This document shows, piece by piece, positions 55,236 to 62,577 of a DNA stretch of 64,000 nt; the first letter of the stretch is position 1, and the number at the start of each line of letters is the position of its first letter. Source of the stretch: Escherichia phage vB_EcoA_4HA11; sequence record MN445184; one strand, given 5' to 3'. Position numbers and translations under genes: made by a program. A model generated the notes under the pieces. The model made no database searches. It was not told the origin of the DNA and saw only the letters and a program-made list of their open reading frames with translations.

Positions 55236-57548
55236 CTATGATCCTATAATTTTATAGGTTAGAGAAGTATTACCATCAACTGGATCAGCATCTATTCCTG
55301 TCGGTCTTGACGCTGTCTTAACCATGACACCAGCGATAGTTTGTCCAGCTGTTGCACCTACATACTTAGAACAATTTACAGAATAGAATAATTGCCTGTA
55401 TTCAATATTACCCTGAATCTCACTTAGTACAACATAGGCCGCACCAGAATCCACTGGGCAGTTAGTATGTATGTTTACTTTTTCCGTGGTGGAGACTCTA
55501 AACATATGGCCGCCATCTGTAGATATACCAGCAAGCCCAATTAATGATAATGTCCCACCGGTTTTGATAAGGAAGCTACTACCAGAATTTGCCTTCAAGC
55601 TACCAGTACCTTCAAAATTAACCATCGGCAACTCCGTGTTAGAGGTAATGGCTATCTCACCTGGGTTAAGATAAACTCTTTTGCACTTGAATAGCTGGCA
55701 TAACTTTGAAATATTAAGTAGCTCTCTTATAGGTTTGGTTCCGTTAAATCCCCAGTTGTAGTTATTACCATTTACAGGATCTATGTATAGAGTGTCTGCT
55801 TTTACACCAACAACATCTTTGATATAGAAAATGTCACCAACTTCCCCAAATTGGAATTGACTTCCCATATTTGTACAGTCGAGTACCAATGTAGGGTAGT
55901 TACCAGTACCTCTAACGAGTTTTAAACCACCTACTGGCATTTGTCCTCTGACAACATTTCGAGCAGTTTCTGGGCAGTTTTTAAGGAAGTACATACTATC
56001 TAGATCAGGGTCTTGTCCGGAAAGACCTACCCCTGACAACGTAACATCTGAACTGGTATTGATCAGGTAGAAACTATGTTTTTTCTTCCCACCAGATGAT
56101 TCAATGTGGGGTTTATCAACCATAAATAAACCGTAGGAATCAGTATCCCGGCCAGCGTGAACAAAGTCGAATGATGCTTGTTCGATGATTGGGCTATTAA
56201 ACTTAACCTCTGAACCTGCAAACTGAGTGATGGCAACATCACCTACCTCAGTAAACCCTGCTGGTTTATACACCGCTTGTTCTAGCTCACCATTGGTATT
56301 ACCAAGGCGGGAAATGTAAGCATTGTTTACAGTAGCACCGCCATTAGAGTCAATGAACACTGCGCCCTGAGTTTTATACAGGATGCGTAGATTTTCATGA
56401 ACAGAACCCCATGATGCTGACTGCAACAATCCTACTCTTGGCAGTCTTGCTGTTGTAATATCGCTCCCTGTATTCTCCCCAATAGATAACCCTTTTGTAG
56501 TGCAACCTGCCCCACCTATCCATTTAACACCAACCTTTACACCTGGTGCTGTAATCAGGTTAAGGTTACTAATATCAATTTTTCTGGCACATGTTACAGC
56601 GTACCCATTATCAATATCTAACCCAGTAGGATAATAATCTACATCTTTATTGAGTTTGTATGAACCATCGGGTTGTTTACGGTACACCATTAAGCTGATT
56701 GCTGCTGTATTCTTATCTACTGGGTCATAAAACAATCCTTGCTTACACTCACGAGTAAAAAAGTTTGGTGCTGGCATTTCAATTGAAACACCTGGGGGTA
56801 TGTATAGCGTCTCTGTGAAACGGTATAACTTGGTCAGGTTAATTTTTACTGCTACTTTCTCCATGTACGAGTTTACAGCCGCAGCATCAGGAAGTGTTTC
56901 AGGAACGTTGTTTATGTCTGAAAGCATTTCTTTTAATTTTGAAGTATCGTCAGCTATTCCGTCGCCTACCGCATTGTACTGTTCAGGTGTGCGTACAGTT
57001 AATACATTATTTAGCGTCCCGTGCGGATGAACTCCAATCAACGAGCCATTGCCGTTTGCCAGTTGTGTTCTCAAAGAAGCATCACCAACACTAACCCACG
57101 CGCCAAGACCAATACCACCAGTTGATGCAGGAGTTGAACCGGCAGGGACAGCTTTAGGTAATGCTCCATCCCAGCGATACTTACCATCTGTATAAGTGAG
57201 TAATTCATTTTTAACGTTAAGCGTAGAACCAGAATCAAACGAACCAGGTAAGGTTACGTATTCTTCACGAGATACAGCTAATGCGCCTAAGTCTACAGAA
57301 CCTGCTGAATGTACAAGTACAGCAGCAGTATTAAGACTGACGGCAGTAGTACCAGAAGCAATACCAGCAGGTAAGGAATAAGCTCTTTGCGTTTCCTTGT
57401 CATAGATAACTTTATACCCCCCTAAATCTACACCAACCGAAAAGTAAACAATCTCAGATTGCTTAACCCCAAAGTGTCTAGCTACTGCTTGTTTGTTGGT
57501 TAGGATTCCAGTTGAACCCTTACCACCTTGACTAAACATCTCGTTCAT
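55236..57548 (-). CDS. tailspike protein (770 aa)
   Basis: N-terminal module shared with the 698-aa tailspike; C-terminal region Gly/Asn/Thr-rich beta-helix-like; AAAGAGG SD. Confidence 0.7.
   Translation of the reverse strand: [770 protein letters not shown]
57069..57548 (-). repeat. N-terminal tailspike module, paralogous copy A
   Basis: About 160 codons similar at protein and DNA level to 62098..62577. Confidence 0.7.
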
Positions 57549-57574
57549 ACATACCTCTTTGTTTTTCTAGTAAG

Positions 57575-57590
57575 CCCCTCCTAAGAGGGG
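57575..57590. promoter_or_regulatory. hairpin CCCCTC-CTAA-GAGGGG in the 51-nt gap between two tailspike genes
   Basis: T-run follows on plus strand only. Confidence 0.35.
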
Positions 57591-57599
57591 TGTATTTTT

Positions 57600-60439: not shown

Positions 60440-60470
60440 AATAAGAACCCCGCCAAAGCGGGGTTTTTGC
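60440..60470. terminator. terminator hairpin CCCCGC-loop-GCGGGG
   Basis: Stem 60448..60463, T-run on plus side, U-rich on minus side. Confidence 0.55.
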
Positions 60471-60480
60471 TCAAGATAAA

Positions 60481-62577
60481 TTAAAGTGTGTATGTTACAT
60501 AACTTCCATCTGGTTTTTTAGCAAGCAACCTCAATGCTCCGTCACTTCCGAAGAAGAATCCTATAGATGAATTATGTTCCAGAGCGCTCTCTGGTAATTG
60601 TAAAGGGGCAGCAGGTATACTCATATGCTTAAAGCCTAAGCGGTTAAGCTGAAACTCACCTACACGTACACCCTCCTGAATTGCCGAAAGCTTGACAATA
60701 CTTGCCTCACCCCCTGGTGTAGCAACCTGGCAATCTGCCGTCATAAGCAAAGATGGGTTTGTAGTACCACCCATAGCAGGTTGCATTGCAAGTGTCATTT
60801 GGTTGGCACTATGCTGAACATTGATATTACCTCCCTGAATATCGCTTATATAGGTACATAGTAATTTCTTAGTACCGGAACCAGCACAGGAAACATTACT
60901 TACTTCTGAAGACGGAGCGTATATAGCGTAACCTTGTGTAGTATATGCATGGATGTTAATACCACGAAGTCTACTACCTCCCTCACAGGTAAGCTGATTT
61001 AGGTTAGTTAAATCCTTATTCGCACCTACTACAGTAATGTTAGTAATATCATTGTTAGTACCCCTATCGAAGACGCCTTCCTTATGGGCCTCATAAGTAA
61101 CAACATTATCAATAATATTTTTCTGACCATCCCACCAAGCACCAATCCCCATACAATCACGAGTAATAATATTACGGATGATATGTTGAGTAGGTAGGTG
61201 GAACCATGGATACTCTGCGAGTGAGTAGTCATCCACACGTTCAGTTGGCGACCCTGTGTCAGCATTAACATCAATACCATCATAGTAACACTGGATTGTA
61301 GTTATATTGTCGAACACTAAACGGTAGTTCCTGGCTGAACGACCTCCAATTTCGTTCTGATAGGTTTTAATACCTGATTCTCCAACACGGTATGAGATTA
61401 AATCCCTTACTCCACCATCATGGTCTGTACCACCATCATTGCGAATGAACAGTACAGCGGAACCAGAGCCATATTTTATCTCACCCCCAACAACCCAGTT
61501 GCCAGTACCCCATGCAGTTGTATGATGGTTCTCAAATGTAATGCCCGATTCCAAAGCAATAAAATTGCGTGGATTCTTAACAAGAATCCTATTACATAAA
61601 GTAAATAGATAACCACCAAATGTAGCTTCTGGGTTCTCTACGATGATATTATCGCCGCTCATTATTCGCAAAGTAGCACCAGCAACCTGATTTTTTACAT
61701 TATCAGGAAGGTCGTCCCAAATATCTAAATCGTTAATATTTGGCTTATATCCAACATCCAAACGCTGCTGAACAGATGCCAGAACTTGTGTTGGGTCTGT
61801 AACCCAATTACCGTTTGCATCGAATCGGTAAACAGTATACGGCGTAGTTTTAGTATGCATGTGCGGTTTCTTAATTACTGAACCCGCACCCAAACCATTC
61901 CAAACCAACATACCATCGCCAATGAATTTTCCTTTGCATTCAATGATTAAAACTTTACCGCTAAAATCTACATTCTCATCTGCAGTAAAAGTGTAGTCAA
62001 CATCAATAAGCAATCCATCTACGGCTGCTGTCGCTGCATCCTGTAATGTAGAATAATCAGATAACTTTACTGAATATTTGAATTTCTTATTAGCTTCCTG
62101 CCTAAATGCAGCATCACCAACACTAACCCAAGCACCTAAACCAACGCCACCAGTTGATGCTGGAGTTGAACCAGCAGGAACAACTTTAGGTAATGCACCA
62201 TCCCATCGATATTTTTCATCATCGTGAACAAGAAGTTCATTTTTCACATTAATAGTATGGCCGAAATTAAAAGAACCAGGTAAAGTCACATATTCTTCGC
62301 GGCTTACTGCTAATTCCCCGAGATCAACAGAGCCAGAAGAATGAGTAAGGATGGCTTGTTCGTTCAGACTTATCGCAGTCGTTCCTGAAACAATACCTGA
62401 AGGAAGAGAATAAGCCCGTTGGGTAGACTCATCATAAATTACTTTAAATCCGCTGAGATCAATACCGACAGTGAAATAAATGACTTCGTCTTCTTTGACA
62501 CCGAAATTTCGAGCGATAGATTGTTTGTTAACTTCTATGGAAGTGGAGCCGCGTGGTTGATTGAATTGAGAAATCAT
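60481..62577 (-). CDS. tailspike protein (698 aa)
   Basis: N-terminal module shared with the 770-aa tailspike; remainder divergent. Confidence 0.7.
   Translation of the reverse strand: [698 protein letters not shown]
62098..62577 (-). repeat. N-terminal tailspike module, paralogous copy B
   Basis: Similar to 57069..57548. Confidence 0.7.

What the first reader, a model, noticed from the sequence alone, without database searches (positions are those of the whole stretch)
57069..62577. Two tailspike genes share a duplicated N-terminal module with divergent distal parts
The first ~160 residues of the 770-aa and 698-aa tailspikes are highly similar (MNEMFSQ...[32 protein letters not shown] versus MISQFNQ...[32 protein letters not shown]). 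The DNA is also visibly similar across 57078..57190 and 62110..62225. Downstream sequences are unrelated. This fits a shared virion-attachment adaptor fused to different receptor-binding domains, and gives a homology substrate for domain swapping. The other two tailspikes lack this module.
Basis: seen in the sequence. Interest (0 to 1): 0.5.

Follow-up and report, generated by a model that had tools for sequence, protein, structure and literature searches.

The report
Known shared head domain of tailspikes
Two tailspike genes of this Salmonella phage do begin with the same 160-residue folded domain, but this is the well-studied docking "head" of Ackermannviridae tailspikes, already solved, assayed and used for engineering, so it is ordinary.

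Summary
The 770-aa (TSP1) and 698-aa (TSP3) tailspikes share residues 1-162/1-161 at 72% identity (E 2e-74), and the rest is unrelated. The window is a Kuttervirus (Ackermannviridae), 99.8% identical to Salmonella phage S118/S115. The shared part is the published D1-D2 "head" domain (PDB 4OJ5, 6NW9; Pfam PF18668 covers D2). In the close relative CBA120, the TSP1 head docks on the XD3 domain of TSP4. The TSP3 head docks on the TSP2:TSP4 complex. Chimeras cut at residues 149 (TSP1), 157 (TSP3) and 479 (TSP4) give working phages.

- **Other tailspikes.** TSP4 also carries the module (residues 346-485, 72% identical), beyond the window's end. TSP2 keeps a diverged D1 (residues 178-249).
- **Recombination substrate.** The two in-window copies are only 68% identical in DNA, with a longest exact run of 21 nt. 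Orthologous modules in other phages are far better substrates (84-96% identity, exact runs of 65-109 nt).

My own addition is small. Codons 1-119 are an ancient, position-specific duplication with saturated synonymous sites.

Already known; low interest.

The parts
55236..57548 (-). TSP1 gene (770 aa), intact. Matches CBA120 TSP1 over its full length.
   Evidence: ORF. PDB 4OJ5, residues 1-769, E = 0.
57069..57548 (-). TSP1 head module, codons 1-160. It comprises a disordered N-terminal tip (about 1-13), D1 (about 13-96, with His25 as the Zn ligand), D2 (97-154) and the start of the helical neck.
   Evidence: PF18668 at residues 91-156. Domain limits are taken from PMC6517402.
60481..62577 (-). 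TSP3 gene (698 aa). The head module is followed by a P22/9NA/Det7-type endorhamnosidase beta-helix.
   Evidence: PDB 3RIQ over residues 156-698 (E = 0) and 6NW9 over residues 1-166 (E 1e-93). PF09251 at 161-697 and PF18668 at 90-155.
62098..62577 (-). TSP3 head module, codons 1-160. Asn24 occupies the position of TSP1 His25 (a Mg site in CBA120 TSP3).
   Evidence: PMC6517402.
57075..57191 (-). Mosaic 3' block of the TSP1 module (codons 120-158).
   Evidence: 83% nt identity; 22 of 32 identical codons vs 10.8 expected, P < 5e-5..
62107..62223 (-). Matching mosaic 3' block of the TSP3 module (codons 119-157).
   Evidence: breakpoint after nt 381 of TSP3, permutation P < 0.001.
57600..60380 (-). 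TSP2 gene (926-aa ORF). The annotated start in S118 and CBA120 is 5 codons downstream, at 60365. It lies between the two module-bearing genes.
   Evidence: PDB 6W4Q, query residues 6-926, E = 0.
59634..59849 (-). Diverged D1-like domain inside TSP2 (residues 178-249).
   Evidence: 35% identity, E 5e-7; the same hit in CBA120, PhaxI and Vi01 TSP2. PMC8825819 describes a 'single D1 head domain' in TSP2.
62681..64000 (-). C-terminal 440 codons of TSP4. The gene runs off the window. Its XD1-3 domains and its own D1-D2 head (residues 346-485) lie beyond 64000.
   Evidence: 440/440 identical to S118 TSP4.. PDB 7REJ over residues 1-338.
50304..55142 (-). The vriC-like gene (1612 aa, DUF4815). It is the conserved gene next to tsp1 that marks the tailspike cluster (PMC8432352 describes it as upstream of the cluster; here it lies past the 3' end of tsp1 on the minus strand).
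   Evidence: PMC8432352.

Best explanation
The shared 160 residues are the two-subdomain 'head' (D1-D2, followed by a helical neck) of Ackermannviridae tailspikes. It is a trimeric docking module that plugs a receptor-binding and degrading beta-helix into a branched four-tailspike complex.

By homology to CBA120, TSP4 anchors the complex to the baseplate, and TSP2 binds TSP4 through their XD2 domains. The TSP1 head (the D1 face, with a positively charged N-terminal tip) docks on XD3 of TSP4. The TSP3 head docks on the TSP2:TSP4 complex.

The two copies are ancient paralogues. Their 5' two-thirds act as position-specific address labels. The 3' third, next to the neck, is the zone where receptor-binding domains are exchanged, so different enzymes end up behind the same head.

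Shown here: the homology, the domain limits, position-specific clustering, saturated synonymous sites in codons 1-119, and mosaicism in codons 120-158. Taken from the literature on 90-95% identical proteins: the fold, the binding partners and the viability of chimeras. Inferred: that the same partners apply in this phage.
For: **Identity of the locus.** The region is 99.8% identical to Kuttervirus S118/S115, with the annotated order vriC-tsp1-tsp2-tsp3-tsp4.

**Match to solved structures.** TSP1 aligns with PDB 4OJ5 over residues 1-769. The TSP3 head aligns with 6NW9 over residues 1-166, E 1e-93. Pfam PF18668 is well above its threshold in TSP1, TSP3 and TSP4.

**Position-specific clustering**.
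- In codons 20-64, orthologues from CBA120, Det7, Vi01, PhaxI and S118 are 81-98% identical in DNA. Paralogues are 53-69%.
- The first 19 residues are 100% identical among the TSP3s of this phage, CBA120 and Det7 (89% to Vi01). They are only 50% identical to TSP1.

**Age of the duplication.** Synonymous sites of TSP1 vs TSP3 are saturated in codons 1-119: 32 identical codons of 80 conserved residues, against 29.4 expected from codon usage.

**Module boundary.** TSP3 identity to CBA120 and Vi01 falls from 84-90% to about 52% at nt 480, the module's end.

**Literature.**
- Heads are 71% identical with rmsd 0.5 A; His-Zn in TSP1, Asn24-Mg in TSP3 (PMC6517402).
- Ultracentrifugation mapped TSP1 head to TSP4 XD3 and TSP3 head to TSP2:TSP4 (PMC8825819).
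- Chimeras cut at residues 157, 149 and 479 are functional (PMC9965104).
Against: No binding or assembly data exist for this particular phage. The partners are transferred from CBA120.

TSP4 carries the same head but is not thought to dock through it. The module is therefore not only an adaptor; it may also be a trimerisation or spacer unit.

D2 alone occurs in many phages without branched complexes, including Jerseyvirus-like siphoviruses, K1F-like podoviruses and phi92. Docking specificity therefore probably sits in D1 and the N-terminal tip only.

Pfam names the D2 family 'receptor binding N-terminal domain', which hints at another possible role.
Confidence: 0.9

Rival explanations
1. A recent duplication or whole-module gene conversion within this phage's lineage copied the 5' end of one tailspike gene onto another.
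For: The two copies are direct repeats 5.03 kb apart in one gene cluster. Codons 120-158 share more synonymous sites than expected.
Against: Overall DNA identity is only 68%. Synonymous sites in codons 1-119 are at the codon-usage expectation. Copies cluster by position across five Kutterviruses, not by genome. The same 71% TSP1/TSP3 head identity is reported for CBA120 (PMC6517402).
Confidence: 0.04
2. The module is a direct baseplate-binding (virion-attachment) domain, like the head-binding domain of the P22 tailspike, and each tailspike attaches independently to the particle.
For: The TSP3 distal part is P22-like. N-terminal particle-binding domains are the rule in single-tailspike phages.
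Against: The Pfam scan of TSP3 reported only PF09251 and PF18668. In CBA120, TSP1 binds TSP4 XD3, and TSP3 needs a preformed TSP2:TSP4 complex (PMC8825819). TSP4 carries the same module internally, downstream of its real anchor and XD domains.
Confidence: 0.04
3. The similarity is a short, low-complexity or chance match with no folded domain behind it.
For: The Gly/Ser/Thr/Ala-rich stretch [11 protein letters not shown] looks simple.
Against: The match is 162 aligned residues at 72% identity, E 2e-74. It covers two crystallographically defined subdomains (PMC6517402).
Confidence: 0.005

Closest known systems
CBA120 TSP1 (ORF210, PDB 4OJ5) and TSP3 (ORF212, PDB 6NW9/5W6F) head domains D1-D2
   Same: Same genus and same gene order. 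The window's TSP1 aligns with 4OJ5 over its full length. Its first 160 residues are 94% identical to CBA120 TSP1. The TSP3 head is 94% (D1) and 90% (D2) identical to that of CBA120 TSP3. The TSP1/TSP3 head identity is about the same (72% here, 71% published), and the His25/Asn24 metal-site difference is also present.
   Different: The TSP3 distal part differs. Here it is a 9NA/Det7/P22-type endorhamnosidase (PDB 3RIQ, E = 0). In CBA120 it is an unrelated O77-specific glycosidase. Identity collapses at nt ~480.
Salmonella phages S118, S115, S117 and SFP10 tailspike clusters (Sorensen et al. 2021, PMC8432352)
   Same: They are 99.2-99.8% identical in DNA over 55000-64000. The same four tailspikes are already typed and partly characterised.
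   Different: In the S118 record tsp1 is split by a 1-nt insertion in a G6 run inside D1, at window position ~57416. The window's tsp1 is intact.
Phage G7C gp63.1 (PDB 4QNL) docking on gp66: a two-tailspike branched system in an N4-like podovirus
   Same: It has the same D1-D2 head (E 9e-71 to TSP1). The logic is the same: a head docks on an adaptor region of another tailspike (as summarised in PMC6517402).
   Different: It is a different virus family with two rather than four tailspikes, and its distal domain is a deacetylase.
P22 tailspike with its N-terminal head-binding domain
   Same: Modular N-terminal attachment domain, neck and beta-helix. The TSP3 beta-helix is homologous to P22's (PF09251).
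   Different: The N-terminal modules are not the same family. The Pfam scan of TSP3 reported only PF09251 and PF18668. P22's domain binds the virion directly.

Membership tests
Ackermannviridae tailspike head domain (D1-D2; Pfam PF18668 Tail_spike_N covers D2) | Sequence match to PF18668 above the curated cut-off | tested here: met
   TSP1 89.9 bits, TSP3 104.8 bits and S118 TSP4 84.5 bits, against a cut-off of 25.
Ackermannviridae tailspike head domain (D1-D2; Pfam PF18668 Tail_spike_N covers D2) | Full-length alignment of both subdomains to solved head structures | tested here: met
   4OJ5 residues 1-769 (E = 0); 6NW9 residues 1-166 (E 1e-93). Cross-matches of TSP1 to 6NW9 and of TSP3 to 4OJ5 are about E 8e-70.
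Ackermannviridae tailspike head domain (D1-D2; Pfam PF18668 Tail_spike_N covers D2) | Metal-ligand residue on the three-fold axis at the end of the N-terminal helix (His25 in TSP1, Asn24 in TSP3) | tested here: met
   Read from the sequence: ARHFGV in TSP1 and ARNFGV in TSP3. The roles of these residues come from PMC6517402.
Ackermannviridae tailspike head domain (D1-D2; Pfam PF18668 Tail_spike_N covers D2) | Head followed by a neck and an unrelated beta-helix receptor-binding domain | tested here: met
   no similarity after residue 162; the distal parts match different solved tailspikes.
Ackermannviridae tailspike head domain (D1-D2; Pfam PF18668 Tail_spike_N covers D2) | Physical docking of the head on the XD3 domain of TSP4 or TSP2 | not testable with these tools
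   Shown by ultracentrifugation for CBA120 only (PMC8825819).
Kuttervirus branched four-tailspike cluster | Gene order vriC, tsp1, tsp2, tsp3, tsp4, with XD domains in TSP2 and TSP4 | tested here: met
   TSP2 matches 6W4Q. S118 TSP4 residues 1-338 match 7REJ. The 5' part of TSP4 lies outside the window.
P22-type head-binding domain | N-terminal region matching a P22 head-binding family | tested here: not met
   only PF09251 (beta-helix) and PF18668 were reported for TSP3 at E <= 0.01.

The most novel reading that the evidence does not exclude
The last third of the head module (TSP1 codons 120-158, through the D2/neck junction) may be a distinct recombination-active patch. It would be homogenised between TSP1, TSP3 and TSP4 by gene conversion, or by repeated hops of receptor-binding domains between positions. 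That would make it a natural crossover zone additional to the published GTTAVSL site at residue 65.

Support:
- Identical codons are in excess only in this block (22 of 32 vs 10.8 expected).
- Orthologous TSP3 DNA identity drops from 96% to 80% (to CBA120), while paralogous identity rises from 64% to 83%.
- A max-chi-square breakpoint falls after nt 381 of TSP3 (P < 0.001).

Sources.
Probability: 0.5. Interest if true: 0.25.

Novelty: already known. Interest (0 to 1): 0.1.

Why it matters
It matters little as a discovery. The shared head domain of Ackermannviridae tailspikes has crystal structures, mapped binding partners, a published comparative analysis of 99 genomes, and engineering studies that exploit it to retarget phages.

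The practical value is in annotation. The four genes here can be named TSP1-4 with confidence. TSP1 probably targets Salmonella O:21, by identity to CBA120 TSP1 (PMC8432352). TSP3 is a 9NA/P22-type endorhamnosidase.

The small refinement, a mosaic 3' third of the head, could help choose natural-looking junctions for chimeric tailspikes.

Tried and rejected
- **Recent duplication or conversion of the whole module.** Rejected by the synonymous-site test and by clustering across phages.
- **Low complexity or chance.** Rejected.
- **Structure prediction and fold search.** Not run. Solved structures 90-95% identical to both heads already exist, so a model would add nothing.
- **Papers for PDB entries 9D80-9D84.** These are newer entries whose chains match the head and XD regions. 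The search found nothing relevant.
- **Loci fetched but not used.** The first Det7 stretch missed the tailspike cluster. Phage 38 is riddled with frameshifts.
- **Limestonevirus XF4.** Used only as an outlier. Its single full head resembles the Det7/Vi01 type of TSP1 head.
- **Large protein-database searches.** Not used, because the phage collection already showed the module's distribution.
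Full report
**What is there.** The region holds a run of minus-strand genes:
- a 1612-aa DUF4815 protein, 50304-55142
- a 770-aa ORF, 55236-57548
- a 926-aa ORF, 57600-60380
- a 698-aa ORF, 60481-62577
- an open frame from 62681 to the window's end

Positions 55000-64000 are 99.8% identical to Salmonella phages S118 and S115, and 99.2% identical to S117 and SFP10. All are Kuttervirus, family Ackermannviridae. The S118 record annotates these genes as vriC, tail spike 1, 2, 3 and 4. The last frame is the C-terminal 440 codons of TSP4, identical to S118's. 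In S118 the gene is 1167 codons long and continues beyond position 64000.

**Check of the observation.** TSP1 residues 1-162 align with TSP3 residues 1-161 at 72% identity with one gap, E 2e-74. Nothing else in the two proteins is similar. An ungapped 242-nt direct repeat at 76% identity is found at 57070-57311 and 62102-62343.

**What it is.** TSP1 matches CBA120 TSP1 (PDB 4OJ5) over residues 1-769. TSP3 residues 1-166 match CBA120 TSP3 (6NW9), E 1e-93. TSP3 residues 156-698 match the phage 9NA tailspike (3RIQ, E = 0), then Det7 and P22 tailspikes. Pfam finds PF18668 (Tail_spike_N) at residues 91-156 of TSP1 and 90-155 of TSP3, and PF09251 in the distal part of TSP3.

The published structures divide the head into D1 (residues 13-96), D2 (97-154) and a helical neck (155-168). 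The CBA120 TSP1 and TSP3 heads are 71% identical and superpose at 0.5 A. A Zn ion is held by three histidines in TSP1, and a Mg ion by Asn24 in TSP3 (PMC6517402). The window shows the same His25/Asn24 difference (ARHFGV vs ARNFGV). This is a folded two-subdomain unit.

**How it works (from the literature on CBA120).** TSP4 carries a baseplate anchor and three T4 gp10-like domains, XD1-XD3. TSP2 binds TSP4 through XD2. The D1 face of the TSP1 head binds XD3 of TSP4. The TSP3 head binds only a preformed TSP2:TSP4 complex (PMC8825819). The module is therefore an adaptor to other tailspikes in a branched complex, not to the virion itself.

Chimeric tailspikes that keep the native head, cut at residue 157 (TSP3), 149 (TSP1) or 479 (TSP4), give viable phages with the donor's host range (PMC9965104). 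Natural swaps of receptor-binding domains between TSP1 or TSP3 and TSP4 start at a conserved GTTAVSL motif at residue 65 (PMC8432352). Both window copies carry the motif (GTTAVSL in TSP1, GTTAISL in TSP3). Recombination between tailspike genes has been seen in the laboratory in S117 (PMC11414711).

The other two tailspikes do not lack the module.
- S118 TSP4, identical to the window's TSP4 over the part present, has the module at residues 346-485, 72% identical to TSP1, E 2e-65. PF18668 hits residues 416-481.
- TSP2 has a diverged D1 at residues 178-249 (35% identity, E 5e-7). The same hit recurs in CBA120, PhaxI and Vi01 TSP2. This agrees with the 'single D1 head domain' described for TSP2 (PMC8825819).

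**My own tests of history and substrate quality.** I compared heads from this phage, CBA120, Det7, Vi01, PhaxI and S118.

| Segment (TSP1 codons) | Orthologue DNA identity | Paralogue DNA identity |
|---|---|---|
| 20-64 | 81-98% | 53-69% |
| 120-158 | window TSP3 vs CBA120 TSP3 80%, vs Vi01 TSP3 69% | window TSP3 vs window TSP1 83% |

- In codons 20-64 the copies cluster strictly by position.
- The first 19 residues are 100% identical among the TSP3s of this phage, CBA120 and Det7, and 89% to Vi01. They are only 50% identical to TSP1.
- For TSP1 vs TSP3, codons 1-119 have 32 identical codons among 80 conserved residues, against 29.4 expected from codon usage. Synonymous sites are saturated, so the duplication is old and the protein similarity is held by selection.
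- In codons 120-158 the picture changes: 22 of 32 identical codons against 10.8 expected, P < 5e-5.
- A max-chi-square scan puts a breakpoint after nt 381 of TSP3. To the left, 122 sites agree only with the orthologue and 5 only with the paralogue. To the right the counts are 15 and 21. Permutation P < 0.001.
- TSP1 and TSP4 also share extra synonymous identity from codon 65 onward. This fits the published TSP1-TSP4 swaps.

The 5' two-thirds therefore behave as a position-specific address. The 3' third is mosaic and is where exchange happens.

The in-genome pair is a poor substrate for homologous recombination, with a longest exact run of 21 nt. Orthologous heads of other Kutterviruses offer exact runs of 65-109 nt. 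Identity to CBA120 and Vi01 TSP3 falls to about 52% right at nt 480, the module's end.

**Distribution.** The module's protein sequence finds 1518 phage records. Both subdomains occur in 355 of them, including Ackermannviridae, G7C/N4-like podoviruses and a Proteus podovirus. D2 alone occurs in many others, including Jerseyvirus-like siphoviruses, K1F-like phages and phi92. D2 is thus a widely shared tailspike building block. D1 and the N-terminal tip are the likelier carriers of docking specificity. That last point is inference.

**Verdict.** Novelty: already known. The only increment here is the quantified mosaic character of codons 120-158.

Noticed in passing
window ~57416 (TSP1 codon ~44, G6 run on the coding strand): The S118 GenBank record has one extra base here, which splits its tsp1 into two annotated fragments. 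The window's tsp1 is intact. Of the other 19 differences between the window and S118 over 55000-64000, 17 lie in tsp2, one in tsp1 and one in tsp3. A homopolymer sequencing error and a real on/off frameshift cannot be told apart.
   Followed up: partly
window 55185-55237, 60419-60471, 62630-62682: A conserved 53-nt element (66-87% identical) lies just after the stop codons of tsp1, tsp3 and tsp4. It contains a GC hairpin (CCCCGC-loop-GCGGGG) flanked by A and T runs, so it looks like a terminator, possibly bidirectional. The tsp2-tsp1 spacer has a different hairpin (CCCCTC TTAG GAGGGG, 57570-57590).
   Followed up: partly
window 60367-60425 and 62577-62635: A conserved 59-nt element (86% identical) lies just upstream of the tsp2 and tsp3 start codons. 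It contains CTAAATACCCC on the minus strand (2 matches in the window, 0.02 expected) and an inverted repeat TACCCCATA...TATGGGGTA. From memory, this resembles the late-promoter motif proposed for ViI-like phages; I did not check it in a paper. With the hairpin element it gives each tailspike gene its own cassette borders.
   Followed up: partly
window 60365-60380: The 926-aa tsp2 ORF starts at an ATG inside the upstream inverted repeat. S118, CBA120 and PDB 6W4Q all start 5 codons later (MTRNVEEL), so the true start is probably 60365.
   Followed up: partly
window 60481-62110 (TSP3 residues 156-698): The TSP3 receptor-binding part is nearly identical to the tailspike of siphovirus 9NA (PDB 3RIQ). 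It is more distantly related to the Det7 and P22 tailspikes. The similarity to 9NA starts at the neck. This is an example of the same enzyme carried on different attachment modules across phage morphotypes.
   Followed up: partly
L003 (PhaxI) 2939-10398; L007 (XF4) 6767-10647: PhaxI has only three tailspike genes, lacking tsp3, and its tsp1 is short (474 aa). The limestonevirus XF4 has three tailspike genes (504, 204 and 548 aa); the head-module query matched only the 548-aa one. The number of head-bearing spikes varies within the family.
   Followed up: no
L008 (Det7) 8782-11178, TSP2 residues 192-254: Det7 TSP2 matches the D2 half of the module (57% identity over 63 residues, E 1e-17). The TSP2s of this window, CBA120, PhaxI and Vi01 match only the D1 half. 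TSP2 head composition therefore differs between Kutterviruses.
   Followed up: no
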